Source: Candidatus Omnitrophica bacterium UBA6249
GTDB taxonomy: Bacteria > Omnitrophota > Gorgyraeia > Gygaellales > Profunditerraquicolaceae
Assembly (NCBI GenBank): GCA_002441305.1
Contig: DJVT01000009.1
Location: 345,210-409,209 of the forward strand
Reading direction: 5' to 3'
Length of the DNA stretch: 64,000 bases
Within the stretch, counting starts at the first letter, position 1. Every line of letters starts with the position of its first letter. Under the pieces are notes generated by a model. It did no database searches. It saw only the letters and a list, made by a program, of their open reading frames with translations, and was not told the DNA's origin. This document shows positions 35,163 through 56,928 of the stretch, piece after piece. A program made the position numbers and the translations under genes.

Positions 35163-36349
35163 TACCGGCCCCTCAATCTATTGGAAATCTCTCTCTGTAA
35201 ATCAAGAATGCGTTTATGCCTGTCTTCCTTTTCTTCCTGGGTAAGGGAATCGGCCAGTTTAGAAGACTGCGTATTCGGCCTGGGGGAATATTTGAATATA
35301 TATGAAGCGTTAAACCCGACGTTCTTGAGCAAGGCACAGGTCTCCTGGAAATCCCCCTCTGTTTCTGTGGGGAAACCTACGATAATATCCGTAGTCAATG
35401 TACCCCCTGTAACGATTCTACGATAAGAGTCGGTTAAAGCCAAGTACTCTTTTACGGAGTACCCGCGGTTCATAAGCTTGAGTATCCTGTCCGAACCGGA
35501 TTGCACCGGAAGATGCAGGGATTTCTCCAGCTTCTCCAGGTCCCTGATGGCGCGGAAAAATTCTTCATTGGCGTCTTTAGGGTGGGAGGTGAAAAAATTA
35601 AAACTCTCCAGCCCTTCCAGCGCGTTTACCTCTTCAAGAAGCCCCCTGAAACCGGAATCCCCCTGGCAATAAGCGTTTACATTCTGCCCCAGGAGGGTAA
35701 TCCTGGATATACCCGAACCCAATGCCCGGAGGATCTCCTCTATAACGCTGGACTGCGCGCGGTGGCGCAATGGCCCGCGCACATACGGAACAATACAATA
35801 CGAACAAAAATTTGAACAGCCCTCGGAAATAACCACGTAAGCATGACTCTTGTCCGCGCGGAAAGAAGTATGATAGACCTCATCCGGCCTCTCCTTGGCC
35901 GCAGTCTCCCAGACCTTCCGCTGGAATAACCCCTCATCCTGGCTCTGTCCTAAAGCAAGAAGCCGGTCAAGAATCGAGGGTATTTTGCCGATATCCTGCG
36001 GCCCCACCACAAAAGAAATCGCCGGGTCGCGCTGGAACGCCTTGTCTTGATAATTCTGCGCCATGCACCCGGCCAACCCGATAATCTTACTGCCTTTATA
36101 ACTCCCGATCAGGCTCCAGACACGGTCCTCGGCATGCTTGCGTACGGAGCAAGTATTAAAGATCACGACATCGGCGTCTTGATCGGAATCACAGACCCGG
36201 TAACCGGCACCCTGGAGAAGCCCGCAGATAATCTCGGAATCCCGGACATTCATCTGGCATCCGAAGGTACGCAAAAGCACACGTAGCTTCTTCGGGCTTT
36301 TGCCTCCGGAATCGCCTGTATTGTCGTCTTTTCGTTCGTTTTCAACCAT
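35162..36349 (-). CDS. miaB: tRNA-i6A37 methylthiotransferase MiaB. The 5' end (36278-36349) is supplied by the integrated element.
   Basis: 395 aa with the UPF0004 domain LRTFGCQMN, the radical-SAM CSNFCSYC motif and a TRAM C-terminus. The first 24 codons lie to the element side of the 20-bp att core and overlap the integrase 3' end in another frame. Confidence 0.85.
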   Translation of the reverse strand: MVENERKDDNTGDSGGKSPKKLRVLLRTFGCQMNVRDSEIICGLLQGAGYRVCDSDQDADVVIFNTCSVRKHAEDRVWSLIGSYKGSKIIGLAGCMAQNYQDKAFQRDPAISFVVGPQDIGKIPSILDRLLALGQSQDEGLFQRKVWETAAKERPDEVYHTSFRADKSHAYVVISEGCSNFCSYCIVPYVRGPLRHRAQSSVIEEILRALGSGISRITLLGQNVNAYCQGDSGFRGLLEEVNALEGLESFNFFTSHPKDANEEFFRAIRDLEKLEKSLHLPVQSGSDRILKLMNRGYSVKEYLALTDSYRRIVTGGTLTTDIIVGFPTETEGDFQETCALLKNVGFNASYIFKYSPRPNTQSSKLADSLTQEEKEDRHKRILDLQREISNRLRGR

Positions 36350-37935
36350 TTCATCCCCTCTTCATAGCAAGTCTTCCAAGGCTCATTCAACTCAAACTTC
36401 ACGATTTCCTGATTCTGGATAGTAATCGACTTAAAGACAATCCGCATGAACGTCTTTATAAGGTAGTCCAATTGGTGATTGTCGCTTTCGGGCGTACTGC
36501 GCAACCTTAAAAGGAAATCCTGCGTCGCTTTCACCAAATTGACGGAATTGCGCTTGTCCAGAATCTTAAGATGAATGGCCTTGATATCCTGCTTTAGTTT
36601 TTTCTCCTCATTACTTAAAAGCTCGGCTCTGTCCTTATAAAGCCCCATATTTATTTTGTCTTCTGAAAATAATTCGTATATAGCCCTTTGCTTCTCCACG
36701 TTCTTTTTAAGAAGCGCTTCCTTCTCCTCCAACTGCTCCATATATACCCGCTCCGGCTCAGAAGCGTTAAGCCGAATCATGTCGCCTAATTCTTCCAGCA
36801 CGTGAAGATTTTTTCTAATAACTTCAACGATATCCCAGACCTGCTTATTGATAGCATCAGCAGTCACGGATTTATTGTTGCACTTAATATACCGAATCCC
36901 TCTAGACGAACATCTATACCACGGACGCCTCATTTTGGTGCGGTGATTAACGATATGCGTCATCCCGCGATAATTACCGCCGCATTCATTGCATTTTAAT
37001 ATACCGGAAAGATGATAAACATTATTCCTGAATCTAACTATGCCATTAGTGCGGTTTCGCTTGAGAAGCGTGGAAGCCTCGTCAAACTCCCTTTGCGAAA
37101 TAATCGGCTCGTGCGTATTCGGGACCTCGATGATCTTGGAAGGATCATTCTTGATATAGCAATATCCCTTTCCCTCGCCATTTTTAGTCTTGATCTTTGT
37201 ATCGTAACGCCGCTTATTCCAGACCAGCATTCCCAAATACACTTTATTTTTAAGGATATCCGAGATGAATTTAGTATAAAACTTCCCGCCCTGCCGCGAA
37301 GGGATACCAAGCATGTAATAATGCCCGGCAATCTGCGAAGTGCTCTTGCCATTTATATACATCGAGAAAATTTCTTTGACGATTTTCGCTTCTTCAGGGT
37401 GGACTTCCAGTTTCTTGGCTTCCTTATTATAACGATAGCCATACGGCGCGTAACGCGCTCCCTGCCAATGCCCCCGCTTAACACCTACAACCATACCCGG
37501 AAAAACGCGCTCAACTAAACGATTACGCTCAAATTCCGCGCAACTGCCAAGCATTTGAATCGCCATTTTGCCCGCGCTCGATGTAGTATCAAACGGCTCA
37601 GTCGCTGATTTATAGCCAACACCCAAAGAATCAATCTCCTCAAGCAATCCTAACAGATCCTTGAGCCGACGACTTAAGCGATCTTGTTTATACACCAAGA
37701 CCAAATCAAACTGCTTATTGCGGGCATCGAAGAGAAGCCTCTGTAATGCCGGTCTATCCATATTGCCGCCGGAATAGCCGTCATCCATATAAACATCCCG
37801 GCCCGACATACTGCAAAAAACATCCCAGCCGAAGTTCTTCGCATATTGCAAAAGATACGTTCTCTGCACCTCCAGCGAAAATCCTTCGCGAGCTTGATCC
37901 TCTGTGCTAACTCTTGTGTATAACGCTACCCTCAT
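36250..37935 (-). CDS. Large serine recombinase (integrase 1)
   Basis: 561 aa with the resolvase catalytic domain ALYTRVSTEDQ, a recombinase domain, the zinc ribbon CNECGGNY...CSSRGIRYIKC and a coiled coil. Its last codons cross the att core. Confidence 0.9.
   Translation of the reverse strand: MRVALYTRVSTEDQAREGFSLEVQRTYLLQYAKNFGWDVFCSMSGRDVYMDDGYSGGNMDRPALQRLLFDARNKQFDLVLVYKQDRLSRRLKDLLGLLEEIDSLGVGYKSATEPFDTTSSAGKMAIQMLGSCAEFERNRLVERVFPGMVVGVKRGHWQGARYAPYGYRYNKEAKKLEVHPEEAKIVKEIFSMYINGKSTSQIAGHYYMLGIPSRQGGKFYTKFISDILKNKVYLGMLVWNKRRYDTKIKTKNGEGKGYCYIKNDPSKIIEVPNTHEPIISQREFDEASTLLKRNRTNGIVRFRNNVYHLSGILKCNECGGNYRGMTHIVNHRTKMRRPWYRCSSRGIRYIKCNNKSVTADAINKQVWDIVEVIRKNLHVLEELGDMIRLNASEPERVYMEQLEEKEALLKKNVEKQRAIYELFSEDKINMGLYKDRAELLSNEEKKLKQDIKAIHLKILDKRNSVNLVKATQDFLLRLRSTPESDNHQLDYLIKTFMRIVFKSITIQNQEIVKFELNEPWKTCYEEGMKWLKTNEKTTIQAIPEAKARRSYVCFCVPSDAR
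36258..36277. repeat. att core copy 1 (CATCCGAAGGTACGCAAAAG), the junction between miaB and element 1
   Basis: Identical 20-mer to 54295-54314. It lies inside miaB codons LLRTFGC and inside the last codons of integrase 1. Confidence 0.8.
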
Positions 37936-38113
37936 TAGTATCCTTTAGTGTCTCCCGCCATTCTTTAATCTTGGCGATACACTCGTCCGTAAACACGGGC
38001 CAGTCTTTGTAGTCGCGCTTGGGCTTAACCCAACCCTTGCGGATCCAATTGATCATGGTCTGCCGGTGAACACCCAGCTTTTTTGCCGTCTCTGTCATGG
38101 TGTAAGTTTTCAT
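37907..38113 (-). CDS. Excisionase-type (MerR-like, HTH_17) DNA-binding protein, a candidate recombination directionality factor
   Basis: MKTYTMTETAKKLGVHRQTMINWIRKGW...; 51 of 58 aligned residues are identical to the element 2 copy. Its 3' end overlaps the integrase start by 29 nt. Confidence 0.65.
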   Translation of the reverse strand: MKTYTMTETAKKLGVHRQTMINWIRKGWVKPKRDYKDWPVFTDECIAKIKEWRETLKDTNEGSVIHKS

Positions 38114-38139
38114 AATTGGCACCCTCTAAGATTAGTGCC

Positions 38140-38168
38140 CAGTATACCGTATTATACAACCCTATACA
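38140..38168 (-). promoter_or_regulatory. Promoter candidate for xis-int (conserved in both elements)
   Basis: The minus strand reads TTGTAT (38168-38163), a 17-nt spacer, then TATACT (38145-38140), with an internal TATAAT. The same block recurs near 56705-56735 in element 2. Confidence 0.4.
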
Positions 38169-38365
38169 AGGGTTTTCTTCTCCGCGTCATACGAGGACAG
38201 GAACATTTTTGACAACAACTCAATGCCTTCAAAAAAGGATTTACGCGCCTCCTGAATCTCAATGCTGGATAGGCCGCGGCCTTTTAGCTTTATCTCTAAA
38301 GCATCCCAGCCCCTAAGGCTAACCGCCTGATCATTATTTGTGCGTACATCCTTGCTCATTTTCAC
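38162..38365 (-). CDS. Conserved small element protein, unknown function
   Basis: 67 aa. SLRGWDALEIKLKGRGLSSIEIQEARKSFFEGIELLSKMF aligns with the element 2 ORF at 56734-56928. Confidence 0.55.
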   Translation of the reverse strand: MKMSKDVRTNNDQAVSLRGWDALEIKLKGRGLSSIEIQEARKSFFEGIELLSKMFLSSYDAEKKTLV

Positions 38366-38373
38366 CGCTACCC

Positions 38374-38456
38374 ATTAGGACATTAGGACATTTTTCGTGT
38401 CGTATGATGTCCGGTTTCACTGACATACTGACATAACTCGTGTCAGTGAATGTCAG
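38374..38456. repeat. Short-word arrays upstream of the small ORF (operator/iteron-like)
   Basis: ATTAGGAC occurs twice in tandem (38374-38391). CTGACAT occurs twice (38420, 38428), followed by inverted TGTCAG twice (38441, 38451). Confidence 0.6.
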
Positions 38457-38600
38457 TCAAAACACCCCTCAAAACCATCGAAATACCCCAAAATTGACAC
38501 TTTTTCCGCAAAGAATGCCTGTTTTGAGCCTTCCTGACCACATTTTGACGCTCTCCGGATAACCCCATATGACATGACATCACTTTTTCAAAATTTTAGA

Positions 38601-38712
38601 TCACTGACAAACTGCGCCTCGCCCGACCCTCACCCGACACCGGCTGCCAAGGACCCGTAAACAAAATGCGTGCGGAGGAGGGCGGAAGGTGTCGCCCTCT
38701 GCCAGACGCATT
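38601..38712. repeat. Conserved GC-rich motif copy 1 plus adjacent hairpin
   Basis: TCACTGACA..GCGCCTCGCCCGACCCTC..AAGGACCC (38601-38656), with an invariant 18-mer at 38614-38631. A hairpin AATGCGT...ACGCATT follows at 38665-38712. Confidence 0.8.
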
Positions 38713-38781
38713 TATCTGGCAAAACTTTCGCGATGGAAGAAGTTAACAAGAACATCGATCCGGTTCCTCCGCATTAGATTG

Positions 38782-39465
38782 TTACTCAGCAACCAACTCT
38801 ACCTGCTCCACTGGCTTTGCGGGCTCAGGCCGATATTTTTTCATAAGGTTATTAATCTCCTGCTCGAGGTCGAAATGCGATACCCAGTGATCCCTGACAC
38901 GGATATCCTCCTCGATATCTGCCGTTGTCGGCCTGCGAAGCTCGGCGATACCCTTTTCTTTCTCAGCATGAAAAATACTGTGCGGCTCTGTTCCTAAACT
39001 GGGGCTAAACGCGGGGTAATCTTCCAAATGCCGTCGGGTAGTCTCTGGATGACCGTAGATAGCAAATGCTAAGGCAAACAACCGGCCCTTCGCCTTCCAC
39101 AGATCGAGGATCAACGTCTCCTTCTCTCTGTTCATGGCTTTACGGTCTTCGATGAGCCTTTTCATCTCTTCGTCCCGCTTCTCCGTCAACGCTTCCTCCA
39201 TTTTCGTCTTGAGTTTAGCGAGGCTCTCGGCAACGACATCGAGATTGATATTGCATTCCTCCAACGCCAAATCCGCTAGCTTCACAGCCTCGGGATTAAT
39301 CCTCTCGCCGCACATAACCCGGCTTCTGATTTCTTTTGCTTTCTCTTTAGCTTCAGTTTTTTCCTGCTCGCAGAGCTTCTGCTTTTCTTCAAGCGCCACA
39401 ATCTGCTCGGCGATCTCTTCCGGCGTGCTTTTGCCCTTTAACACGTTTAAAAAATTCAGTTTCAT
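38782..39465 (-). CDS. Coiled-coil hypothetical protein (variable slot of element 1)
   Basis: 227 aa, charged and helical. I recognise no motif. It occupies the position held by the Nu1-like gene in element 2. Confidence 0.5.
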   Translation of the reverse strand: MKLNFLNVLKGKSTPEEIAEQIVALEEKQKLCEQEKTEAKEKAKEIRSRVMCGERINPEAVKLADLALEECNINLDVVAESLAKLKTKMEEALTEKRDEEMKRLIEDRKAMNREKETLILDLWKAKGRLFALAFAIYGHPETTRRHLEDYPAFSPSLGTEPHSIFHAEKEKGIAELRRPTTADIEEDIRVRDHWVSHFDLEQEINNLMKKYRPEPAKPVEQVELVAE

Positions 39466-39559
39466 TTTTCGTTCCTCCTGTATTTGTTGATTTGAATTAC
39501 TATTCTTCTGCCTTGGTTTTTACGTTTGCCTACATCTTTCACCTCCCCTTTTTCTACCC

Positions 39560-39772
39560 TCTGAACGTTGTGAACATTGACTACTCTTATTTTTCTAACT
39601 GCCTCTAATGACCCCCTACAAGGGGCTTTCCCTCTTTCTCTTTTCTTTTTTAGAAAAGGAAAGAAACGACATTCACAATATTCATGAATCCCACATCCTC
39701 TTGTAGATTATGAGGATAATCCGTGACCAAAGCTGTGAACGTAGCCCGTCCACAGTCACAATGGTCACACCT
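39560..39772. repeat. Iteron-like word pairs and an AT-rich tract downstream of primase 1 (replication origin candidate)
   Basis: TGAAC occurs at 39562 and 39571, TTCA(C/T) words at 39671 and 39680, and GTCACA at 39755 and 39764. Each pair is 9 bp apart. An A/T-rich imperfect palindrome lies at 39630-39665. Confidence 0.4.
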
Positions 39773-42136
39773 TTAATACGGCCTTGGATCGTCTTCATCA
39801 CAAAAATCCTTTCCTTGTTCACCTTCATTCACGCCTTCGTTCACACTGCCTTTAAAAAGCGAATTACCCTTTATCCTGCGTAAGATAACCAGCTTCCTGC
39901 CGGTACCGGCTTCACGCTTTTCCGGACGTAAAATATCAATGCCCACACTGCGCATAACCGGAGCGATGCGCATAAGCTCTGAACCAAGTGCCCGGGCGTT
40001 GCCGGGTAGCGTCTTATCAAAACCGGTTTCCGGCTTAATGCTCTCAAGCAGTGTGGTCGCAGAACCCGCCCACTCGCCTCCGTTTGACTCCACAAGATAG
40101 ACCAACTTTTGCGCGAATGTGCTCTCTTCTGCGGTGTCCTCCCATTTATGATCAACCGATTGCTGATACCGCTTAAAAAATTCCTCCCGGGAGAATCCCA
40201 AATGCTGTGACAACGCCGCACCCCACTGCGCGAAATCCGACATCCTAAAACGCTCATGCCCGGACACACCGTCAATAACTGCCATTGCGTTTGAAATTGC
40301 CGAAAAGAAACCGCCGAGAATACCGGGAAGCGAAGCCCGCCATTCGTAAGCGATGACTTTCTCCGGCCTTGTCTCTTTTAAGATTGGTATATCGAAGATA
40401 ACTGAACGGTCTAATAGATCCGGACGGCATATAGCACTGCCGATACCGTTTAAAACGAAACATCGGCGATAGGTCCTGATGAATTCCTCATCATTGGTGT
40501 AAAGCGATCGCTTCATATCTCCCTCGCCTGTTACTGCCCGGCATAAAAAATCACTGAACCACTCAGACACGCGAGAAAAATTGTCGAAATTATTCAACCA
40601 GTGTTTATCCGCGATCATCTGCGCCTGCTCTAAATCCTTAGGCACAGAAATGGACATCACCTTGGAAGGATCGCACAGGCTTTTAATCATCCGGGAGTTG
40701 TTAGACTTTCCTGTTCCCTGCTCGCCTATCTGCACTGGTATGACATGAGGAATATCGGGAATAAAGAAAGTCGCTACCGCCGTCATGAATAGACAAGCGT
40801 CATCTTTATTGATATTGCAAAACTCCAAAAGCTTTTTAGGATCAGAGCCCTTGACCGGAAAAACCTGCTCTGCCTGATGGGGGTATCGCTTGAATATTGG
40901 AGGCAGGAAAACAACTTCCCATCCATCTTTAGTAATAATGACCCCGCGCCAGTCTTGAGTGGTCAGGTCATAATAAATAGCCCCGTTATGCCAACCGACA
41001 CGGTTATATAGCTCAACCTGCCTTCCGCCTTCGCACTTCGCCTCAATCTGAACTTTCGCCTGCTTTATAGCTTCGCTCCCGGGCGGATGGCCGAAGTCCT
41101 GCCGGTAACGCAGAGCGCAGTAATTCCTGAAGCGGGAACTGCTTGTCTGGCAAACCTCAAGATGTTTATCAAACGGAAGAACAACGTAAGGATTACCTTG
41201 TTGGTCGCGCAGATATTCGCTAACCGTTTCTTCACAGTCACGGGTGATAATTTCGCCTTGGGTAAGTTTCTTCTGCTTCGGAGATGTTGACGCCTCAAAT
41301 ACATTTTCGGTGTCTTGGACGGCCTTCTGAATAACGCTTTGCCCGTAAGTCTTGCCGTCACCAAAATGTTTCTCATCCCACTTCGGCCGCATAAGCCCCG
41401 ACTGCCGGAACAACGCATCCATCTGCCCGGCGTCTTTGCTTGTCCAAAACGCCAGCTTGTTGCACAACGCCAGATCCGCCTCACTTTGAGAGGGATAATC
41501 GGTCTGCCACTGGCCCGAATAAAGCCGCTGAAACCTCTCCGCGTCTTTACTCTTGGCGATCAAGGTAAGAATGTCGTCTGCGGGCCCTTTATCCACAAAC
41601 CGGCTGAATATATCTTTAAGCGCATCAGTGCACTCGTTAAGCTCAGCCGGATAATTTTCAAGGCGGTTGCCGGTAACGGTAAAGAATCGGCCATTGGTAT
41701 AAATCTCCAAGCCGATCTTGGAAATTTTGCAGGCCCGGGCGATCTCGCCTTTACAAAGGATATGAATACCTGTGCCGCTTGGCGAATATTCGGAATATGA
41801 ATTAATCGCCTTGAGAATCTCAACCGCATACGGCGCGATTGATCCGTCTTTGACGCAGTGGTCAATATCCACGCCCACATACGGCGGCTGAAACATAAAG
41901 CCAATGCCCGCGTAGTTACGCTGAATCGCCAAATCTAAAGCCATTTCAAAATCAGTCCATGTTGCAGGATCGTTGCTTTTCGCAGGCGCGCCGGTCATAA
42001 CATTCATCGGAATCTTGTCAACACGGCCATTGTTCTCTCTGGTGACATAACCCACCCACGCCTTTTGAGACCTAATCTCGGCGGGAATAATTGAAGGCAT
42101 CTTGTTAAAATCTATCATTGCTGTTTGCATCGCCAC
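39773..42136 (-). CDS. Prim-Pol (AEP) primase fused to a DUF3987-like P-loop helicase
   Basis: 787 aa with the N-terminal AEP motifs VGVDIDHC and SPSGTGIHIL, and the PriCT-like block YPSQSEADLALCNKLAFWT...LFRQSGLMRPKW. The Walker A motif is GEQGTGKS. Confidence 0.8.
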   Translation of the reverse strand: MAMQTAMIDFNKMPSIIPAEIRSQKAWVGYVTRENNGRVDKIPMNVMTGAPAKSNDPATWTDFEMALDLAIQRNYAGIGFMFQPPYVGVDIDHCVKDGSIAPYAVEILKAINSYSEYSPSGTGIHILCKGEIARACKISKIGLEIYTNGRFFTVTGNRLENYPAELNECTDALKDIFSRFVDKGPADDILTLIAKSKDAERFQRLYSGQWQTDYPSQSEADLALCNKLAFWTSKDAGQMDALFRQSGLMRPKWDEKHFGDGKTYGQSVIQKAVQDTENVFEASTSPKQKKLTQGEIITRDCEETVSEYLRDQQGNPYVVLPFDKHLEVCQTSSSRFRNYCALRYRQDFGHPPGSEAIKQAKVQIEAKCEGGRQVELYNRVGWHNGAIYYDLTTQDWRGVIITKDGWEVVFLPPIFKRYPHQAEQVFPVKGSDPKKLLEFCNINKDDACLFMTAVATFFIPDIPHVIPVQIGEQGTGKSNNSRMIKSLCDPSKVMSISVPKDLEQAQMIADKHWLNNFDNFSRVSEWFSDFLCRAVTGEGDMKRSLYTNDEEFIRTYRRCFVLNGIGSAICRPDLLDRSVIFDIPILKETRPEKVIAYEWRASLPGILGGFFSAISNAMAVIDGVSGHERFRMSDFAQWGAALSQHLGFSREEFFKRYQQSVDHKWEDTAEESTFAQKLVYLVESNGGEWAGSATTLLESIKPETGFDKTLPGNARALGSELMRIAPVMRSVGIDILRPEKREAGTGRKLVILRRIKGNSLFKGSVNEGVNEGEQGKDFCDEDDPRPY

Positions 42137-42351
42137 GTCCGTATTTGGTTAAGTATTGCCCGGAGTTTACTGTCGTTATATGGCACGCGACAGGTATAAA
42201 GCCACATCTCGACCTCTGAGGCGCGAAACATAACTTCCCCGCTTGGTAGCCTAAAATGCGGGATAAGCCAATTCTTCACCAGATAGTCAATCTGGCTCCG
42301 CCTTAGATTGAGATGAGTCATAAGCCGTTCAACAGTCAATAAGCCTTCCAT
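42115..42351 (-). CDS. AlpA/excisionase-family HTH regulator
   Basis: 78 aa. LLTVERLMTHLNLRRSQIDYLVKNWLIPHFRLPSGEVMFRASEVEMWL matches the HTH_17 pattern. It overlaps the primase start by 22 nt. Confidence 0.6.
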   Translation of the reverse strand: MEGLLTVERLMTHLNLRRSQIDYLVKNWLIPHFRLPSGEVMFRASEVEMWLYTCRVPYNDSKLRAILNQIRTWRCKQQ

Positions 42352-42460
42352 GTGATATCCTCCTCGCGAATTTCTTTTCTACTTGGAGTTTATCACTGGA
42401 AAAATCATGCCTTCCCAGCTTTACCCAAATTTGCTCAAATTTTTACATTGATTGTGCGTA

Positions 42461-42488
42461 AAAAAGAAAAAACGCCCTAAGGCGTTTT
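42461..42488 (-). terminator. Rho-independent terminator after the 203-aa gene
   Basis: The minus strand has the stem AAAACGCC / GGCGTTTT with a 4-nt loop, followed by a T-run. Confidence 0.7.
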
Positions 42489-42522
42489 AGTGGGAATTAC
42501 TGCTATTTTTGTTTTGGAAATA

Positions 42523-43134
42523 CTACTGAGAGGAGTCTTGATCGTCAGCGGTAGGAAGTTCTTCGGCGGCGATCTGCCATTTGCTTCCGATCTTGCGGGC
42601 TAATAACTGATTATTCTCAAGCCAGTTTTGCATGGTCTTACGGCTGATATTAAAAACCTTGGCCCAATGCGTGATTGGATACGGGCTTGACCAGCCGCTA
42701 CGCGGGATTAATTTCGGTCTTATTCTAAACTCAGAAGACATTATCCTGTTTCTTGCACCCATAATACGGTGCATCATCCCAAGTTGCATATCTTTCGTCT
42801 TTTCACACCATTCATTGTAGCCTCCGGGAAGCCACGTTGGAAGCTCAGGGATAACCGGTGTTTCATTCGGCCCGAATAGATATTCTATAATGGGGATAGC
42901 CGCTTGATTGGCTTCCTGATAAAGATTTCCCAAGTCAGGCTTTTTTACTTTATGCTTCTTTAGCGTTTTCTCATACTTGTGGAATACATCATCTTTTGTC
43001 AGCCAATCATAGGAATCGATTGATGAAAGACCGAGCCTTTCAATAGTCAACACCCACTCACTGGAGGCCTTCTCATACGCTGACCACTTTTTCCAGAACT
43101 CCGTAACGCAATCGAGTTTATTCTTTTTATCCAC
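42523..43134 (-). CDS. Conserved 203-aa element protein with C-terminal excisionase-type HTH
   Basis: It aligns along its whole length with 60633-61244 of element 2. The C-terminus reads ITHWAKVFNISRKTMQNWLENNQLLARKIGSKWQI. Confidence 0.7.
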   Translation of the reverse strand: MDKKNKLDCVTEFWKKWSAYEKASSEWVLTIERLGLSSIDSYDWLTKDDVFHKYEKTLKKHKVKKPDLGNLYQEANQAAIPIIEYLFGPNETPVIPELPTWLPGGYNEWCEKTKDMQLGMMHRIMGARNRIMSSEFRIRPKLIPRSGWSSPYPITHWAKVFNISRKTMQNWLENNQLLARKIGSKWQIAAEELPTADDQDSSQ

Positions 43135-43179: not shown

Positions 43180-43395
43180 TTAATCAATACGTAAAGTGCT
43201 GTCCTTAAAAATATTTTTTTCTTCATTCTGGTTCAGTTTTCTAAAAACAAATAGGTGTTCATGCATGATTAAAAGGAAATCCTTGTCCTGCGCGCTCCAG
43301 TATCTGGTAGTCGAACAATTGTGTTGTACTTTTATAACATCTTCTTTGAGTAGGAATCCGGCTTTTAAGAAGCGTCGCATAACAGAAAATGCCAA
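43180..43395 (-). CDS. Hypothetical 71-aa ORF (weak)
   Basis: An ORF with no motif in AT-rich DNA. An equally long antisense ORF overlaps it. Confidence 0.25.
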   Translation of the reverse strand: MAFSVMRRFLKAGFLLKEDVIKVQHNCSTTRYWSAQDKDFLLIMHEHLFVFRKLNQNEEKNIFKDSTLRID

Positions 43396-43462
43396 CGGAA
43401 CATAATGCCTGCGTCGGCGAGTATCTCCGATGAGGATGGCGCAATATTGAAGGCCAATTTAC

Positions 43463-43681
43463 TCAGTCAGCTTTTTCTATATCTTTTTCCTCCTCTGAAA
43501 CACGATTATCTTCACCGCATTGAATAGACAGGACAAGCGGCCCCTTTGCAAAATTCATACAAATTACACCCTGCGAGTCAACAACACCGTTTATATCGGT
43601 ATCTTCCGATAACTGCCAGCCACTATTTTTTAATGTGGCTAATATTTTCTTCGCCTCTTGAATATGATTTTTATCGAGCAT
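43463..43681 (-). CDS. Small hypothetical protein translationally coupled to the DpnI-like gene
   Basis: 72 aa from the internal ATG (MLDKNHIQEAKKILATLKNSGWQL...). It overlaps the DpnI-like stop by 11 nt. Confidence 0.4.
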   Translation of the reverse strand: MLDKNHIQEAKKILATLKNSGWQLSEDTDINGVVDSQGVICMNFAKGPLVLSIQCGEDNRVSEEEKDIEKAD

Positions 43682-44468
43682 TTTCTTCCTTATGCTCCAA
43701 CGGCGTAAGCCGATACTTGCCACGACCGATGAATTCCAAATACCCTTTATCACGTAAAATTTGCAATTGCTGCCTGATCTTATCCTTGATGTGTTTATTG
43801 CCAGGATAAGCTCTCTTTAATTCCTCTTCAAATTTATAAACATCATCTAACAAAAAGTCTTTTTTGTCTAAACGGTCGATGCATTTCATAACCGTTAATG
43901 TCCACCCTCTCGATTCAGATCGGGAAGATTCCCTTAAAAATAGAGTCCTCCGCCATTCAGCCGACACCTTGTCTTTTGGCGAAACCTGATGATCACGTAT
44001 AAAATATATCTTCCCGGCCTCAGGGATAGAACGAAGCAGAATATTGCAACCAACCCAATGGCTCCGCCTAGCCTCAGGTGAGAGCGGTTTTCTCATCTCA
44101 ATAATATCGGCCGTAAAAAAATGTTTTGGGATTACCAAAAAATTTACAACCGCCCATGATGTAATCGAATAATTCAAAAAGAAAAAATTTGGATTATTTA
44201 GATCTTTTAGTCGCTCGAGCATCGTCTCATAAGCGCCATCGACTACTTTATCTCCGATTTTGTCTTTTTTGCTCTTTAACTCAAATTCCTCTCTACAACT
44301 TAGGCAAAAGAAATCCGCGACAGGCCTGCTATTCGGAAATTGCCTAAGAGAAAGCCCACAATTGGGACAATATATCTCTCGCTCAACCCAGTTCTCGGTA
44401 AGAACTCTGGCCTTCTGAGAAGGACTTTTGTATGCCGCCGATAGGCGCTGATCAAGATCGAGGTTCAT
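43671..44468 (-). CDS. DpnI-like methyl-directed type IIM restriction endonuclease (Dam-replacing family)
   Basis: 265 aa that aligns throughout, from memory, with S. pneumoniae DpnI. Shared blocks are SQKAR.LTE.WV....YCPNCG, NRPVADF.C..C.EEFELKSKK, NPNFFFL, SRGWT and NHIK.KIRQQLQILRDK...F.GRGKYR. Confidence 0.85.
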   Translation of the reverse strand: MNLDLDQRLSAAYKSPSQKARVLTENWVEREIYCPNCGLSLRQFPNSRPVADFFCLSCREEFELKSKKDKIGDKVVDGAYETMLERLKDLNNPNFFFLNYSITSWAVVNFLVIPKHFFTADIIEMRKPLSPEARRSHWVGCNILLRSIPEAGKIYFIRDHQVSPKDKVSAEWRRTLFLRESSRSESRGWTLTVMKCIDRLDKKDFLLDDVYKFEEELKRAYPGNKHIKDKIRQQLQILRDKGYLEFIGRGKYRLTPLEHKEENAR

Positions 44469-44622
44469 ATTGGATAGCCGTAGCCAGTCTCCTTAAAACC
44501 GAATAAATATGATCACAATCCTCACCGGCTTCTAGCCAGTTTTTCTTTTCATCATCCCAGCAATAATCCAAGACACGCCTAATATCATCTTCCACCTGCT
44601 CATTCATTATTATTGATCGCAT
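44452..44622 (-). CDS. Possible 56-aa ORF overlapping the DpnI-like start (below the ORF-track cutoff)
   Basis: My own translation is MRSIIMNEQVEDDIRRVLDYCWDDEKKNWLEAGEDCDHIYSVLRRLATAIQYEPRS. Its stop lies 17 nt inside the DpnI-like gene. Confidence 0.3.
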   Translation of the reverse strand: MRSIIMNEQVEDDIRRVLDYCWDDEKKNWLEAGEDCDHIYSVLRRLATAIQYEPRS

Positions 44623-44634: not shown

Positions 44635-45768
44635 TCACCTTTTTTCTTTTGATGCCGAAGAATCTTTTAATGCCCGCTCAATTTCTTTAATTGTCGGCAA
44701 ACTTGATTTCAATTCCTTAGGTAATGCCCGTGTAATTTGATATTCAGACACCCCGATGGCTTTGGTTACGCCTTTCAAAGCATATTCGGCAATAATCTGA
44801 TTCTTATCCTGACACAGGATAAGTCCTATCGTTGGCCTATCTTGTTCATGACAAAGTTGGGCGTCTACCACATTACAATAAAAATTCATTTTTCCCGCGT
44901 ATTCTGGTTTAAATGGCCCCCGCTTGAGATCTACGACAATGAAGCACCGCAAACGCAAGTGGTAAAATAAAAGATCCAGATAAAATTCTTTCGCGCCTAT
45001 GTTCAAGAGATACTGTCGGCCTACAAATGCAAAGCCCTGCCCTAACTCAAGGAGGAATTTCTCAACGTGTGCGAGAAGGCCCAACTCAAGTTCTCGCTCA
45101 TGAAAAGGTTCCGATAAAGTAAGAAAGTCAAAGATATACGGGTCCTTTAAACTTTGCTCTGCAAGATCCGATTGAGCTGGCGGCAATGTCCGCGAGAAGT
45201 TATGAATCACTTTTCCAGAACTTCGATGAGCTGCTGATTTAATCATTGCGCTCAATCTATCGCGACTCCAGCCCTGTTCTATCGTCTGCTGCATATACCA
45301 CAATCTATCATCAAGATCACTTACTTTCTCCATGAGAAGCACATTATGAAACCATGGCAATTTTGCAGCAACCTGCTGCAAAATTAAAGAATGCTTCTGA
45401 CGAGCTTTATTTTTTGCAGCACCCTGCTGCATAATTAACGGCTTCCCATATTCCCGGGCAAAGCGAATCATATACCCAATATTTCTCTCCGAAAAACCCT
45501 TTACCTCTGGCATTTCATTCCGAATATCCCTGGCTAATTTAGGAATAATTGCCGCGCCCCAACCAGCTCTTGCTTGACGTTCAATAATGGCCCGTCCGAT
45601 ATCCCAATAAAGGACAACCATTTCATTATTGACAGCGAACGTGGCTTTAACTTGTGCCGACCGAATACGCTCTTTCACCGCTTTTAAAAAAACAGGATAG
45701 TCGGAAGGCAACCCTGATAACTTTTTAACAGATAGTGAATTACTTGATGGCGACATCTTTTTTGTCAT
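44635..45768 (-). CDS. DUF1016 / YhcG family PD-(D/E)XK nuclease-domain protein
   Basis: 377 aa with the typical YhcG N-terminus (..RIRSAQVKATFAVNNEMVVLYWDIGRAI...). The C-terminal nuclease core reads YLDLLFYHLRLRCFIVVDLK. Confidence 0.8.
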   Translation of the reverse strand: MTKKMSPSSNSLSVKKLSGLPSDYPVFLKAVKERIRSAQVKATFAVNNEMVVLYWDIGRAIIERQARAGWGAAIIPKLARDIRNEMPEVKGFSERNIGYMIRFAREYGKPLIMQQGAAKNKARQKHSLILQQVAAKLPWFHNVLLMEKVSDLDDRLWYMQQTIEQGWSRDRLSAMIKSAAHRSSGKVIHNFSRTLPPAQSDLAEQSLKDPYIFDFLTLSEPFHERELELGLLAHVEKFLLELGQGFAFVGRQYLLNIGAKEFYLDLLFYHLRLRCFIVVDLKRGPFKPEYAGKMNFYCNVVDAQLCHEQDRPTIGLILCQDKNQIIAEYALKGVTKAIGVSEYQITRALPKELKSSLPTIKEIERALKDSSASKEKR

Positions 45769-46397
45769 AAATCATCCTCTAAATTAGGAATCGTATGGAC
45801 TACTACTCCCTGAGCCTGAAAATCATTTCCCGCCACAATAGGTTTATGATTTTTATTCGTCGACCGTGGTTTTAATACCACCGTATGGGCAGAAGCCGAA
45901 TATTCTTTGATTGTAACCTCATTATCGACTAAAGCAACGATCGCCTCTCCGTTTTCGGCGGTTCGTTGTTTCTTAACCAGAATAAAATCCCCATCGTTAA
46001 TTCCTTTTTTATTCATAGAATCACCCTTGGCGCGCAAAAGGAAGTATTTATGCGGAGGTTTAGCGAGTTTCGTTGAGACAGGAAATACAGCTTGAATATT
46101 CTCTTCAGCAAAAATCGGCATTCCACATGGGGCCGTACCCACCAAAGGGATATCAATCGTTTGAATATTAGCCTTATCCTCAAAATCCCGGACGATTTGT
46201 AAAGATCCGATCGGGCTCCTACGAAGAATACCCTTCGAGATGAGTTTATTAACTAACAGAGAAGCAGATCGAGGTGAGCGGTATCCCAGCGTCTTCATCA
46301 AATCGCGCAATGAAGGACATCGACCAAAATTAATTATCGAGCTTCTTATTTCTTTTAGGGCAATATTTTCTTTATCTGAAAGCGTTAATGTTCTCAT
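45765..46397 (-). CDS. LexA-like repressor (winged-helix plus S24 peptidase)
   Basis: It has a LexA-type DNA-binding N-terminus (PSLRDLMKTLGYRSPRSASLLVNKL) and an S24 core (GDSMNKKGINDGDFILVKK, catalytic Ser/Lys context). I use the ATG at 46397. It has a 4-nt overlap with the DUF1016 gene. Confidence 0.8.
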   Translation of the reverse strand: MRTLTLSDKENIALKEIRSSIINFGRCPSLRDLMKTLGYRSPRSASLLVNKLISKGILRRSPIGSLQIVRDFEDKANIQTIDIPLVGTAPCGMPIFAEENIQAVFPVSTKLAKPPHKYFLLRAKGDSMNKKGINDGDFILVKKQRTAENGEAIVALVDNEVTIKEYSASAHTVVLKPRSTNKNHKPIVAGNDFQAQGVVVHTIPNLEDDL

Positions 46398-46414
46398 GTA
46401 TACAATTGTATACA
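46397..46414. promoter_or_regulatory. Perfect 18-bp palindrome abutting the lexA-like start (operator candidate)
   Basis: TGTATACAATTGTATACA is two self-complementary TGTATACA octamers joined by AT. It has an SOS-box-like TGT...ACA periphery. Confidence 0.6.
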
Positions 46415-46687
46415 ATATGAATAAGAAGTCAATGATTTTTTGCGAATTTTATAAGACAAATGTCAGTAGTGCCAAATGTCCATTTGCCAGCAAATATTAA
46501 ATTCTCGTGGGCATTTTCATGTCCATCCATGTCCATCAAAATGCCCTTTTTCGGCCTTCCCGGGAGTCCCTAAAACACCCCTAAAATCGCCTATTTCCCG
46601 TCGCTGGACGCTCATTTTGGCCGGGTTGACCACTTATGCCCAAACCCCAAAAGTGATGGACATGGACATCGATTTTTTTAACCACTA

Positions 46688-46815
46688 TCACTGGCTCCTT
46701 GCGCCTCGCCCGACCCTCACCCAAGCCCCCTTCCAAGGACCCAGTGCCACTTAACAACATATTTCGTAAATACAAGAATCCTCCCGCAATAAGGCATTAC
46801 GGAAGGATTCTTGTA
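46688..46815. repeat. Conserved GC-rich motif copy 2 plus adjacent hairpin
   Basis: TCACTGG..GCGCCTCGCCCGACCCTCACCC..CCAAGGACCC (46688-46742). A hairpin TACAAGAATCCT...AGGATTCTTGTA follows at 46771-46815. It is preceded by GGACAT/ATGTCC word arrays at 46461-46536 and 46656-46669. Confidence 0.8.
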
Positions 46816-56323: not shown

Positions 56324-56360
56324 GTCATCCTGACCCTGAACGAAGTGAAGGGGAAGGATC
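56324..56360. repeat. Repeat family copy on the 3' side of the GIY-YIG gene
   Basis: GTCATCCTGACCCTGAACGAAGTGAAGGGGAAGGATC. It ends at the GIY-YIG stop codon. Confidence 0.8.
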
Positions 56361-56693: not shown

Positions 56694-56733
56694 GTGCCGT
56701 TCATTGAAGGCCAGTATACCTCATTATACAACC

Positions 56734-56928
56734 TTATACAAGAGGATTCTTCTCCGTATCATAGCAAACCAAAAACATTTTCGATAAGACCTCTATCCCA
56801 TCATAAAACGATTTACGAGCCTCCTGTATTTCCGCGATAGACATACCCCGGCTTTTGAGTTTTTCCTCTAAAGCCTCCCATCCCCGCGAATTCTCCGTAA
56901 TTGTTCTATTCTTCTGCTTCTCCATCAT
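56734..56928 (-). CDS. Conserved small element protein (element 2 copy)
   Basis: NSRGWEALEEKLKSRGMSIAEIQEARKSFYDGIEVLSKMF aligns with 38162-38365. I chose the start by homology (MMEKQKN). Confidence 0.55.
   Translation of the reverse strand: MMEKQKNRTITENSRGWEALEEKLKSRGMSIAEIQEARKSFYDGIEVLSKMFLVCYDTEKNPLV

What the first reader, a model, noticed from the sequence alone, without database searches (positions are those of the whole stretch)
44635..46815. A LexA-like S24 repressor is translationally coupled to a DUF1016 (YhcG) nuclease, behind a perfect 18-bp palindrome and a copy of the conserved motif
The lexA-like gene (45765-46397) and the PD-(D/E)XK DUF1016 gene (44635-45768) overlap by ATGA, so they form one operon. 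The lexA-like ATG is directly abutted by TGTATACAATTGTATACA (46397-46414), a perfect palindrome with an SOS-box-like TGT/ACA periphery. Further upstream lie GGACAT word arrays and motif copy 2, an architecture parallel to the region upstream of the small-ORF/xis/int block. This suggests two non-exclusive roles. The S24 repressor could be the DNA-damage-sensing maintenance switch of the element. Alternatively, the pair could be a damage- or infection-triggered nuclease module. I do not recognise it as any described defence system.
Basis: inference. Interest (0 to 1): 0.65.

Follow-up and report, generated by a model that had tools for sequence, protein, structure and literature searches.

The report
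LexA repressor heading a restriction-nuclease operon
A genuine LexA-type DNA-damage sensor is the first gene of a small operon of restriction nucleases carried on an integrated mobile element, and its close relatives in other uncultivated bacteria almost always head restriction or other anti-phage gene cassettes, which suggests an undescribed way of wiring such defences to DNA damage.

Summary
lexA (45765-46397, minus) overlaps yhcG/DUF1016 (44635-45768) by ATGA. The 18-bp palindrome abuts the ATG and is unique in the window.

The protein is a canonical LexA. It passes the NCBIfam lexA equivalog cut-off and keeps an invariant Cys91-Gly92 cleavage site, Ser127 and Lys164.

An 88-aa remnant of a DpnII-cassette methylase follows, so yhcG-orf56-dpnI replaced a Dam/DpnII cassette.

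LexA-DUF1016 pairing occurs only in this population. In all 22 distinct loci of the 58-93% identity clade, however, lexA is directly followed by Type II restriction genes. More distant members in other phyla head CBASS, ubiquitin-like and translesion-polymerase cassettes. None of 34 ordinary lexA loci showed this pattern among the families listed.

The promoter (TTGAC-N16-TAYAAT-N7-ATG, probably leaderless) and the TGTATA-N6-TATACA operator are conserved. The same operator type lies before xis-int in both elements of the window.

Most likely this is an SOS-sensing repressor of a serine-integrase/primase element, co-transcribed with its restriction cargo, as in lambda cI-rexAB. I rate it a new variant of a known kind. 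Whether it is also the host's only LexA is unresolved.

The parts
46405..46432 (-). lexA promoter: -35 TTGACT (46432-46427), 16-nt spacer, -10 TACAAT (46410-46405). The -10 ends 7 nt before the ATG, so the mRNA is probably leaderless.
   Evidence: Consensus scan gives 10 of 12 matches. The same TTGAC(A/T)-N16-TA(C/T)AAT-N7-ATG layout occurs in 18 other lexA promoters of the clade.
46397..46414 (.). Predicted LexA operator TGTATA-CAATTG-TATACA. It can also be read as two TGTATAC units 10 bp apart. It overlaps the -10 box, the transcription start and the ATG.
   Evidence: Unique in the window. Identical or near-identical in all orthologous promoters despite unrelated upstream flanks.
45765..46397 (-). 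lexA: canonical LexA repressor, 210 aa, with Cys91-Gly92 cleavage site, Ser127 and Lys164.
   Evidence: Pfam LexA_DNA_bind plus Peptidase_S24. NCBIfam TIGR00498 scores 137.8 against a cut-off of 110.95. These residues are invariant in 32 sequences. Aligns end to end with E. coli LexA structures.
44635..45768 (-). yhcG: DUF1016_N plus YhcG_C PD-(D/E)XK nuclease, 377 aa. Its start overlaps the lexA stop (ATGA).
   Evidence: Pfam. PADLOC PDC-S02, E 6e-143. D265, D280 and K282 are conserved. The nearest relatives, at most 70% identical, are in other phyla.
44452..44622 (-). orf56: small protein that accompanies DpnI. It overlaps the dpnI start by 17 nt.
   Evidence: 50% identical to the 56-aa ORF that precedes DpnI in L207. 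No family match.
43671..44468 (-). dpnI-like methyl-directed (GmATC) Type IIM restriction endonuclease, 265 aa.
   Evidence: Pfam DpnI plus DpnI_C, full length. PADLOC mREase_II, E 1.5e-114. 58-59% identical to the DpnI genes that follow lexA in L004 and L207.
43186..43449 (-). Pseudogene remnant: the C-terminal third of the second methyltransferase of a DpnII cassette. It is a scar of cassette replacement.
   Evidence: tblastn gives 81% identity over residues 174-261 of 261 of the L001 methylase. Sister locus L110 has lexA-dam-X-M2 intact on the same backbone. Homology breaks at about 45799 and 43449.
46508..46745 (.). Motif region copy 2, with GGACAT words, ATCACTG, TGCGCCTCGCCCGACCCTCACCC and CCAAGGACCC. 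It is the outermost conserved part of the element. Homology to other genomic contexts stops at about 46743-46745.
   Evidence: In L110 and L113 the flanks beyond AAGGACCC are unrelated, whereas the syntenic L265 continues into rnk.
38142..38169 (-). LexA-type operator at the internal promoter before xis-int of element 1: TTGTATAGGGTTGTATAATACGGTATAC, containing a TATAAT -10 box.
   Evidence: Exact match to TTGTATANNNTTGTATA, expected 0.00 times by chance. Matrix score 20.1, above all 20 shuffles. Conserved in element variant L213.
56714..56741 (-). Homologous LexA-type operator in element 2: TTGTATAAGGTTGTATAATGAGGTATAC.
   Evidence: It is the best conserved block in the alignment of the two small-ORF/xis regions.
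36250..43134 (-). Backbone of integrative element 1: serine integrase 36250-37935, xis-like HTH 37907-38122, small ORF 38162-38365, internal motif region 38366-38660, 227-aa gene 38782-39465, primase-polymerase 39773-42136, 78-aa HTH 42115-42351, 203-aa HTH 42523-43134.
   Evidence: Pfam and PHROGs. 85% nucleotide identity to the same backbone in L265, which carries a different lexA/R-M module.

Best explanation
The gene at 45765-46397 encodes a canonical, self-cleaving LexA repressor. It belongs to a horizontally mobile LexA lineage whose members sit as the first gene of restriction or other defence operons.

In this window it heads the operon lexA-yhcG-orf56-dpnI. The operon lies in the cargo slot at the far end of a roughly 10.4-kb integrative element (serine integrase, xis, primase-polymerase; about 36.3-46.74 kb).

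Proposed mechanism:
1. A LexA dimer binds TGTATA-N6-TATACA, which overlaps the -10 box and the start of a probably leaderless mRNA.
2. Negative autoregulation therefore keeps LexA and the co-transcribed nucleases at a low steady level while the element is integrated.
3. The nucleases are YhcG (a PD-(D/E)XK enzyme of unknown specificity) and DpnI (which cuts Dam-methylated GATC).
4. When RecA filaments form on single-stranded DNA, through DNA damage or an infecting phage, LexA cuts itself at Cys91-Gly92 using Ser127 and Lys164.
5. The operon is then derepressed and nuclease output rises.
6. The same loss of LexA frees the operator-bearing promoter in front of xis-int in both elements of the window, which favours excision.

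Shown: gene identities, operon structure, conservation of promoter, operator and catalytic residues, the clade-wide LexA/restriction linkage, cassette replacement, and the operator-like sites at xis.

Inferred: DNA binding, RecA-dependent cleavage, a leaderless start, induction of the nucleases, control of excision, and any anti-phage activity.
For: Identity of LexA.

Operon: ATGA overlap, gaps of 12 nt or overlaps between genes, and no convincing terminator on the minus strand.

Operator and promoter: conserved in 19 promoters whose upstream flanks are unrelated.

Linkage: 22 of 22 distinct loci of the 58-93% clade have restriction genes right after lexA.
- DpnII cassettes; DpnI; MvaI/BcnI; HinfI; BpuJI-like; BsoBI; PDDEXK_5.
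- Members at 49-57% identity in other phyla head TdeIII R-M, a CBASS cyclase, HNH-SAVED, E1/E2 systems, umuDC and imuB-dnaE2.
- Control: 59 ordinary lexA loci. Of the 34 with a co-directional neighbour, none hit a methylase or restriction family among the 25 families listed.

lexA and the R-M genes move as a unit. L265 has the same chromosomal flank (92% identity) and the same element backbone (85%). Its LexA is only 63% identical and its cargo is MvaI/BcnI.

Cassette replacement scars: the methylase remnant at 43186-43449 here, the sister locus L110, and a 50-aa dam N-terminal remnant before DpnI in L004.

Operators at xis-int.

The element terminus at about 46743 places lexA inside the element.

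Precedent: in Thermus phages a LexA-like gene, a restriction gene and the integrase form an operon expressed in the prophage (bioRxiv 10.1101/2024.08.14.607894).
Against: - No experiment exists. The organism is an uncultivated Omnitrophota bacterium.
- I could not determine whether the genome has a second lexA, or whether this operator also precedes recA, uvrA and similar genes. No SOS gene lies in the window, and the metagenome scan for the 18-mer returned mostly unrelated sequences.
- In L004 and L207 the lexA/DpnI pair sits among housekeeping genes with no visible mobile element. This fits a chromosomal SOS regulator equally well.
- The two xis operators are homologous copies, so they count as one independent event. 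Their first repeat overlaps the last codons of the small ORF.
- The scissile site is Cys-Gly rather than the usual Ala-Gly of LexA.
- The many DpnII-type loci may reflect one ancestral acquisition, so the 22 loci are not 22 independent events. At least eight different restriction families are nevertheless involved.
Confidence: 0.6

Rival explanations
1. This is simply the host's chromosomal SOS master regulator. The position downstream of lexA is a permissive insertion hotspot where restriction cassettes accumulate. Co-transcription would then be incidental, giving the cassettes a promoter without any adaptive coupling to DNA damage.
For: - The protein passes the lexA equivalog model.
- Homologues are annotated LexA throughout Omnitrophota.
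- In L004 and L207 the gene lies among housekeeping genes.
- Some clade members head classical SOS cassettes: umuDC and imuB-dnaE2.
Against: - Clade members at 49-57% identity occur in Bacteroidota, Nitrospirota, Methylococcales, Zixibacteria and on viral contigs, while all other LexAs fall to 38% or less. Bacteroidetes are reported to lack canonical LexA (PMC8565304).
- In L265 lexA diverged together with its cargo inside an otherwise 85-92% identical context.
- Here lexA lies inside the element boundary.
- The linkage is 22 of 22, against none seen among ordinary lexA genes.
Confidence: 0.2
2. LexA acts here as a restriction-modification controller, a functional analogue of C proteins. It would set the timing and level of methylase and nuclease expression on entry into a new host and enforce cassette maintenance. 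The S24 domain would serve dimerisation or turnover rather than DNA-damage sensing.
For: - It is always the first gene, autoregulated, and tightly coupled to Type II R-M genes.
- lexA and the R-M genes are exchanged as a unit.
Against: - It lacks the C-protein fold. It has a LexA wHTH plus S24 domain, not a small HTH_3 protein.
- The Cys-Gly site and the Ser/Lys dyad are invariant across the clade, which argues that self-cleavage is under selection.
- A pure repressor at the head of the operon does not delay the nuclease relative to the methylase.
- The cargo also includes methylase-less nucleases (DpnI, YhcG) and CBASS, which need no establishment control.
Confidence: 0.12
3. LexA and YhcG form a dedicated two-gene, damage-triggered toxin or abortive-infection module.
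For: - ATGA translational coupling.
- YhcG is a catalogued defence candidate with an intact PD-(D/E)XK site.
Against: - The pairing occurs only in this population. None of the 21 other clade loci has a DUF1016 gene after lexA.
- yhcG arrived together with orf56 and dpnI by replacing dam-dpnII.
- The closest YhcG relatives, at most 70% identical, come from other phyla.
Confidence: 0.05

Closest known systems
Canonical LexA/SOS autoregulation (E. coli LexA, PDB 1jhh, 3jso, 7b5g)
   Same: - The same two-domain protein, aligned end to end, with the Ser/Lys dyad.
- An operator in its own promoter.
- The half-site TGTATA/TATACA equals the core of the E. coli consensus CTGTATATATATACAG (own knowledge).
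   Different: - The half-sites are 6 bp apart instead of 2 (TGT-N12-ACA against TGT-N8-ACA).
- The cleavage site is Cys-Gly, as in UmuD (own knowledge), not Ala-Gly.
- The mRNA is probably leaderless.
- The downstream genes are restriction nucleases rather than repair genes.
- The gene rides on a mobile element.
Lambda cI-rexA-rexB operon (own knowledge)
   Same: An S24-family repressor of an integrated element is co-transcribed with defence genes from an autoregulated promoter, so the defence is expressed in the quiescent state. RecA-stimulated self-cleavage induces the element.
   Different: - The repressor here is a true LexA (wHTH, PF01726), not a cI-type HTH_3 protein.
- The cargo is restriction nucleases.
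- The element is a serine-integrase/primase element without visible virion genes. Element 2 has only a small-terminase-like gene.
Thermus phages IN93, Tsatsa and Riverbug: variable defence region between a LexA-like gene and the integrase (bioRxiv 10.1101/2024.08.14.607894)
   Same: A LexA-like regulator, a restriction endonuclease (Type IV or Type IIL) and the integrase are co-directional and thought to be transcribed in the prophage. The slot is variable and horizontally exchanged.
   Different: - A different phylum and a different element type.
- Here lexA is exchanged together with the cargo.
- The linkage extends to chromosomal loci and to many Type II R-M families.
Pneumococcal DpnI/DpnII alternative cassettes (Lacks 1986; PMC3812788; PMC12707154)
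   Same: - The same enzyme families alternate at one locus: Dam-type methylase, DpnII and an N6_N4 methylase, versus DpnI.
- Physical scars of replacement are present.
- Part of the pneumococcal cassette (dpnA) is stress-induced, through competence.
   Different: - Here the cassette sits behind lexA and a LexA operator instead of a competence promoter.
- The gene order is M-R-M.
- An extra YhcG nuclease and orf56 accompany DpnI.
C (controller) proteins of Type II R-M systems (PMC12707154)
   Same: An autoregulatory DNA-binding protein is encoded as the first gene and co-transcribed with restriction genes.
   Different: - An unrelated fold.
- C proteins activate and then repress, and carry no protease domain or damage sensor.
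DNA-damage-responsive defence regulators: BrxR/CapW (WYL) (PMC9122601, PMC9122589); CapH-CapP (own knowledge)
   Same: Regulators encoded next to diverse defence systems (BREX, CBASS, R-M). Per the listed abstracts they co-localise with and regulate defence systems; that they link expression to DNA damage signals is my own knowledge.
   Different: - Different protein families.
- Here the sensor is the classical RecA/LexA self-cleavage module.
lexA2-imuA-imuB-dnaE2 mobile mutagenesis cassette (Erill et al. 2006, own knowledge; PMC4951493)
   Same: A lexA copy travels as the first gene of a horizontally spread cassette. Clade members L014 and L018 carry a Y-family polymerase plus DnaE2, and L015 carries umuDC.
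   Different: In the window and in the whole 58-93% clade the cargo is restriction or defence genes, not polymerases.

Membership tests
LexA (NCBIfam TIGR00498, canonical LexA) | N-terminal LexA winged helix-turn-helix (PF01726) | tested here: met
   28.3 bits against a cut-off of 23.7, residues 7-62.
LexA (NCBIfam TIGR00498, canonical LexA) | C-terminal S24 peptidase domain with catalytic Ser and Lys | tested here: met
   PF00717, E 6.7e-26. Ser127 and Lys164 are invariant in 32 sequences and align with S119 and K156 of E. coli LexA.
LexA (NCBIfam TIGR00498, canonical LexA) | Ala-Gly scissile bond in the cleavage loop | tested here: inconclusive
   The aligned position is Cys91-Gly92, invariant in the clade. 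Cys-Gly is the natural cleavage site of UmuD (own knowledge), so cleavage is plausible but unproven.
LexA (NCBIfam TIGR00498, canonical LexA) | Whole-protein score above the curated equivalog cut-off | tested here: met
   137.8 bits against 110.95.
LexA (NCBIfam TIGR00498, canonical LexA) | Operator in its own promoter (autoregulation) | tested here: met
   A conserved dyad overlaps the -10 box and the start in 19 promoters. This is sequence evidence only.
LexA (NCBIfam TIGR00498, canonical LexA) | RecA-stimulated self-cleavage | not testable with these tools
   Needs biochemistry.
LexA (NCBIfam TIGR00498, canonical LexA) | Controls an SOS regulon (recA, uvrA, translesion polymerases) | not tested
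   No such gene is in the window.
YhcG/DUF1016 nuclease (PADLOC candidate PDC-S02) | DUF1016_N plus YhcG_C domain pair, and a match to the PDC-S02 models | tested here: met
   Pfam E 2.9e-39 and 1.8e-64. PDC-S02 E 6e-143.
YhcG/DUF1016 nuclease (PADLOC candidate PDC-S02) | PD-(D/E)XK catalytic residues | tested here: met
   D265 is nearly invariant, K282 is invariant, and D280 is present in the VVDLK motif, in 16 sequences.
YhcG/DUF1016 nuclease (PADLOC candidate PDC-S02) | Embedded, co-directional, inside another defence locus (the criterion by which PDCs were defined) | tested here: met
   It lies between lexA and orf56-dpnI on the same strand. The criterion is taken from bioRxiv 10.1101/2024.01.29.577857.
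YhcG/DUF1016 nuclease (PADLOC candidate PDC-S02) | Demonstrated anti-phage activity | not testable with these tools
   The source states that the PDC systems are untested.
DpnI-type Type IIM restriction enzyme | N-terminal DpnI catalytic domain plus C-terminal winged-helix domain | tested here: met
   PF06044 covers 1-180 of 183 and PF17726 covers 1-69 of 70. PADLOC mREase_II.
DpnI-type Type IIM restriction enzyme | No active cognate GATC adenine methylase in the same locus | tested here: met
   Only an 88-aa methylase remnant remains. No dam or DpnII match occurs elsewhere in the window.
R-M controller (C) protein | Small HTH_3-type protein acting as activator and repressor at C-boxes | tested here: not met
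   The protein has 210 aa with LexA wHTH and S24 domains and no HTH_3 match. It may work like a controller but is not a member.
Repressor-defence-integrase operon of temperate elements (lambda cI-rexAB, Thermus IN93) | S24 repressor co-directional with defence genes on an element that has an integrase | tested here: met
Repressor-defence-integrase operon of temperate elements (lambda cI-rexAB, Thermus IN93) | The same repressor controls the element's excision or lytic promoters | tested here: inconclusive
   Operator-type sites lie before xis-int in both elements and in L213. Binding was not tested.

The most novel reading that the evidence does not exclude
A horizontally mobile lineage of canonical LexA serves as a plug-in DNA-damage or infection sensor for Type II restriction-modification systems and other defences (CBASS, E1/E2 systems, PDC-S02).

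On this reading lexA and its cargo move and are swapped as one cassette. This includes a DpnI/DpnII alternation like that of pneumococcus. The module makes restriction inducible through RecA-triggered self-cleavage, while the same repressor gates excision of the carrier element. It would be a new class of defence regulator alongside C proteins, BrxR/CapW and CapH-CapP, with a new LexA operator, TGTATA-N6-TATACA.
Probability: 0.45. Interest if true: 0.8.

Novelty: new variant of a known kind. Interest (0 to 1): 0.65.

Why it matters
Type II restriction systems are generally described as constitutive or governed by dedicated C proteins, methylase autoregulation or antisense RNA. A 2025 review of R-M biology that I searched shows no LexA-headed R-M operon.

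If the linkage seen here is functional, restriction levels in these bacteria rise on DNA damage or infection. That would change how self-restriction risk, phage defence and horizontal transfer are balanced.

It would also add the oldest known damage sensor, RecA/LexA, to the short list of sensors that control defence islands.

The module is small (lexA, its promoter and a cassette) and could be tested directly in E. coli.

The locus also offers a second natural example, outside Streptococcus, of DpnI and DpnII cassettes replacing each other, with the scars still visible.

Tried and rejected
- **Regulon via the 18-mer.** I scanned metagenome contigs for the exact 18-mer to find the regulon. Of 120 stretches, 111 lack lexA and are unrelated palindromes, microsatellite-like repeats or iterons from other organisms. 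The scan gave more lexA loci but no regulon.
- **SOS genes in the window.** A search for signature motifs found none.
- **RNA families.** An Rfam search of 36-48 kb at E up to 1 gave no match, so the conserved motif region is not a known RNA.
- **tRNA genes.** The only ones, at 2774-2977, are far from the element, so there is no tRNA attachment site.
- **YhcG structure.** No solved homologue was found by sequence. The AlphaFold model from 16 close homologues had a mean pLDDT of 49, too poor for a fold search, so none was run.
- **Empty integration site.** All contigs carrying the identical YhcG (L210-L217) have the element at the same place, so the boundary had to be inferred from L110, L113 and L265.
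- **Contig L201.** It shows a permuted module order but no terminal overlap, so a circular form is not shown.
- **LexA-YhcG toxin/antitoxin reading.** Considered and rejected because the pairing is not conserved.
- **C-protein membership.** Considered and rejected because the fold differs.
- **Exact attachment sites.** I could not resolve them.


Full report
**1. The observation**

On the minus strand an ORF with ATG at 46397 and stop at 45765 (210 aa) is followed by a 377-aa ORF at 44635-45768. The two share the four bases ATGA.

TGTATACAATTGTATACA lies at 46397-46414. Its first base pairs with the A of the ATG. It is a perfect palindrome and occurs once in the 64-kb window even with three mismatches allowed, against 0.01 expected. 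The octamer TGTATACA occurs only at these two positions.

The roughly 300 bp further upstream align with the region upstream of the small ORF/xis/integrase block. The two share an identical 23-mer and GGACAT words. A third copy lies in a second element at about 57.7 kb.

**2. What the genes are**

The first protein has the LexA DNA-binding domain and the S24 peptidase domain. It scores 137.8 bits against the NCBIfam lexA equivalog model, whose cut-off is 110.95. It aligns end to end with E. coli LexA structures.

In an alignment of 32 clade members, Cys91-Gly92, Ser127 and Lys164 are invariant. Cys91-Gly92 sits at the position of the Ala84-Gly85 scissile bond. Ser127 and Lys164 correspond to E. 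coli S119 and K156. Cys-Gly is the natural cleavage site of UmuD (own knowledge).

The second protein has DUF1016_N plus the YhcG PD-(D/E)XK domain, with D265, D280 and K282 in place. It matches the PADLOC models for PDC-S02 at E 6e-143. PDC systems are candidates defined by being embedded in known defence loci, and they are untested (bioRxiv 10.1101/2024.01.29.577857).

After a 12-nt gap comes a 56-aa ORF (44452-44622). Overlapping it is a full-length DpnI-family methyl-directed restriction enzyme at 43671-44468 (Pfam DpnI plus DpnI_C; PADLOC mREase_II, E 1.5e-114). No convincing terminator separates these genes.

**3. Promoter and operator**

A TTGACT-16-TACAAT promoter lies at 46432-46405. 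Its -10 hexamer ends seven bases before the ATG, which leaves no room for a ribosome-binding site. A leaderless mRNA is likely; this is an inference.

Exactly the same layout is found in 18 other promoters of related lexA genes whose upstream flanks are unrelated. It consists of an A-tract, TTGAC(A/T), 16 nt, TA(C/T)AAT, 7 nt and then the ATG.

The operator varies between TGTATACAATTGTATAC, TGTATAATA(C/G)TGTATAC and a few other forms. All fit TGTATA-N6-TATACA, which can also be read as two TGTATAC units 10 bp apart.

The half-site equals the core of the E. coli SOS box, but the spacing is four bases wider (own knowledge of the E. coli consensus). I found no report of this motif in the held literature. 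The nearest published case is the direct-repeat motif TTACACATATTTTWTACATA of Balneolaeota LexA (PMC7739468).

**4. Who else has this LexA and what follows it**

The closest homologues, at 58-93% identity, are almost all from Candidatus Omnitrophota.

In species-representative genomes, further relatives at 49-57% identity appear in Nitrospirota, Bacteroidota, Methylococcales, Goldiibacteriota, Margulisiibacteriota, Zixibacteria and Patescibacteria. After these, identity drops abruptly to 38% or less for ordinary LexAs. Two predicted viral contigs also carry members at 50%. Bacteroidetes are reported to lack canonical LexA (PMC8565304). The clade has therefore spread horizontally.

I examined the gene directly downstream in every locus with enough sequence. 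In the 58-93% clade, all 22 distinct loci have Type II restriction genes there.

| Cargo directly after lexA | Loci |
|---|---|
| Dam-type methylase, DpnII, N6_N4 methylase | L001, L005, L006, L086, L100, L103, L132, L205, L206, L263 |
| Same, with the nuclease replaced | L110, L113, L201 |
| DpnI | L004, L207 |
| Methylase plus MvaI/BcnI | L007, L265 |
| Methylase plus HinfI | L208 |
| Two C5 methylases, BpuJI-like nuclease, Vsr | L266 |
| Methylase plus BsoBI | L267 |
| PDDEXK_5 protein | L209 |
| YhcG, orf56, DpnI | this window |

The more distant members in other phyla head other cassettes:
- a TdeIII R-M system (L010);
- a Dam methylase plus an unknown protein (L017);
- a SMODS/AGS_C CBASS cyclase (L025);
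- an HNH-SAVED effector on a viral contig (L218);
- E1/E2/ubiquitin-like systems (L012, L016);
- umuDC (L015);
- a Y-family polymerase with DnaE2 (L014, L018).

As a control I took the 59 ordinary lexA loci from the same scan. Twenty-five have no co-directional neighbour within 300 nt. The first neighbours of the other 34 hit 47 Pfam families. Among the 25 families listed, none is a methylase or a restriction enzyme.

The loci are not all independent, because the DpnII group may descend from one event. At least eight different restriction families are involved, however.

**5. yhcG is a recent insert, and cassettes replace each other**

Window 43186-43449 encodes an 88-residue fragment. It is 81% identical to the last third of the second methylase of the DpnII cassette.

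Locus L110 has the same element backbone and a 95% identical LexA, but carries lexA-dam-X-methylase intact. Its homology to the window breaks at about 45799, inside the last eleven codons of lexA, and at 43449. The segment yhcG-orf56-dpnI therefore replaced dam-dpnII-5' methylase.

In L004 the reverse scar is seen. A 50-codon N-terminal piece of dam remains between lexA and dpnI.

The 56-aa ORF is 50% identical to the ORF that precedes DpnI in L207, so it belongs with DpnI.

The identical YhcG occurs only in contigs of this same population. Its next relatives, at most 70% identical, are in other phyla. LexA-DUF1016 is thus not a conserved pair.

The alternation of DpnII-type and DpnI-type cassettes at one locus mirrors the pneumococcal system, where part of the cassette is induced by competence (PMC3812788; PMC12707154).

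**6. Relation to the mobile element**

The window holds two related elements, each with all genes on one strand.
- Element 1 runs, in transcription order: lexA, yhcG, orf56, dpnI, methylase remnant, 203-aa HTH, 78-aa HTH, primase-polymerase, 227-aa protein, internal motif region, small ORF, xis-like HTH, serine integrase.
- Element 2 (54.2 kb to beyond the window end) has the same backbone. It also carries a small-terminase-like gene and a GIY-YIG insert.

L265 comes from a related genome. It has the same chromosomal neighbours (rnk and others, 92% identity up to window 46508) and the same backbone (85% identity from window 43148 onward). Between these it carries a LexA only 63% identical, followed by an MvaI/BcnI system. 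lexA and its restriction cargo have therefore been exchanged as a unit inside a conserved frame.

In L110 and L113 the similarity to the motif region stops at window 46742-46743, right after AAGGACCC, and unrelated sequence follows. This places the element end there and puts lexA inside the element.

**7. LexA-type operators at xis-int**

The pattern TTGTATANNNTTGTATA occurs exactly three times in the window, against 0.00 expected. The three sites are the lexA promoter and the position just before xis in each element (38153-38169 and 56725-56741).

I built a weight matrix from nine distinct lexA operators.

| Site | Matrix score |
|---|---|
| lexA site | 25.7 |
| xis site, element 1 | 20.1 |
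| xis site, element 2 | 18.7 |
| Best score in any of 20 shuffled windows | 18.1 |

In 322 kb of related loci, only lexA promoters and the xis promoter of element variant L213 exceed 15.5.

Both xis sites contain a TATAAT hexamer and form the best conserved block of that region. They are homologous copies, so they count as one independent event. Binding is untested.

**8. Interpretation**

The most economical reading is the one known from lambda cI-rexAB (own knowledge). It is also the reading of the Thermus phages in which a LexA-like gene, a restriction gene and the integrase form a prophage-expressed operon with a variable defence slot (bioRxiv 10.1101/2024.08.14.607894).

On this reading an S24 repressor of an integrated element is co-transcribed with defence cargo. 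Negative autoregulation gives steady low expression. RecA-triggered self-cleavage then raises nuclease expression and releases the excision genes.

Several features are new relative to those precedents:
- the repressor is a canonical LexA;
- it is linked clade-wide to Type II R-M and other defence cassettes across phyla;
- lexA and the cargo move together;
- the operator has not been reported in the literature I searched.

The main rival is that this is simply the host's SOS regulator with passenger cassettes. It cannot be excluded, because I could not test for a second lexA or for operators at SOS genes.

**9. Verdict**

The repressor, the operator and the link to xis-int hold up. The specific LexA-DUF1016 system does not.

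I rate the finding a new variant of a known kind, with interest 0.65.

Noticed in passing
window 36250-36349: The last 11 codons of the element 1 serine integrase (YVCFCVPSDAR) are read in another frame from the 5' coding region of the MiaB-like radical-SAM gene (LRTFGCQMN). Element 2 and L113 carry nearly the same sequence (TTTTGCGYACCTTCGGATG) near the 3' end of their integrase genes, although element 2 sits next to a Na+/H+ exchanger gene. This suggests that the attachment site mimics the miaB 5' end. I could not locate the exact crossover or the displaced miaB 5' fragment.
   Followed up: partly
window 38366-38660, 46508-46745, about 57690-57750; also L110, L113, L201, L265: A ~300-bp module contains GGACAT/TGACAT word arrays, ATCACTG, GCGCCTCGCCCGACCC and AAGGACCC. 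It precedes two different operons (lexA-restriction and small ORF-xis-int). It ends sharply at AAGGACCC in seven different contexts. Rfam gives no match. It could be an origin, a recombination site or a shared regulatory leader.
   Followed up: partly
L201 (metagenome contig Ga-type, 14455 bp): The same modules occur in a permuted order: primase, 227-aa gene, motif region, 109-aa ORF, lexA, dam, a 180-aa gene in place of DpnII, and the methylase. A serine recombinase lies on the opposite strand. This is the order expected if the segment between the two motif copies of element 1 were circularised. The contig has no terminal overlap.
   Followed up: partly
L265 5632-5904 and L201 3766-4095: A conserved 90-109-aa ORF (KTRYISVRL.GEEVYVENIST) lies between the motif region and the lexA promoter in relatives. 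It is absent from the window, where homology breaks at 46508.
   Followed up: no
window 56360-56653: In element 2 a GIY-YIG nuclease gene is inserted between the operator-bearing promoter and xis. Element 1 lacks it.
   Followed up: no
window 56906-57532: The 208-aa protein of element 2 matches phage small terminase subunits (PHROG 57, E 2e-20). Together with the integrase and primase, this gives the elements a phage-satellite-like look.
   Followed up: no
window 46771-46815 and L265 about 5215-5260: The hairpin after the rnk/greA-like gene keeps its pairing through compensatory changes (GAATCC/GGATTC against GAACCC/GGGTTC), as expected for a real terminator.
   Followed up: partly
window 1-36000 versus 42000-64000: G+C is about 0.50 in the first 36 kb and 0.36-0.44 from 42 kb onward. 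This includes apparently chromosomal genes (two-component systems, PhoU-like, Na+/H+ exchanger) between the two elements.
   Followed up: no
L005 11261-14095, L006 3676-4758, L263 9892-12708, L206 9300-12624: The lexA-DpnII cassettes are often followed by further defence-type genes: SIR2 plus a HerA-like ATPase, an SNF2 helicase, an SMC/AAA protein and a 1340-aa protein. These loci therefore act as small defence islands.
   Followed up: no
L218 (IMG/VR contig), 6001-7807: On a high-GC predicted viral contig, a 50% identical LexA overlaps an HNH-SAVED (Cap5-like CBASS effector) gene. A serine recombinase lies divergently upstream. The TGTATA-type operator is absent there.
   Followed up: no
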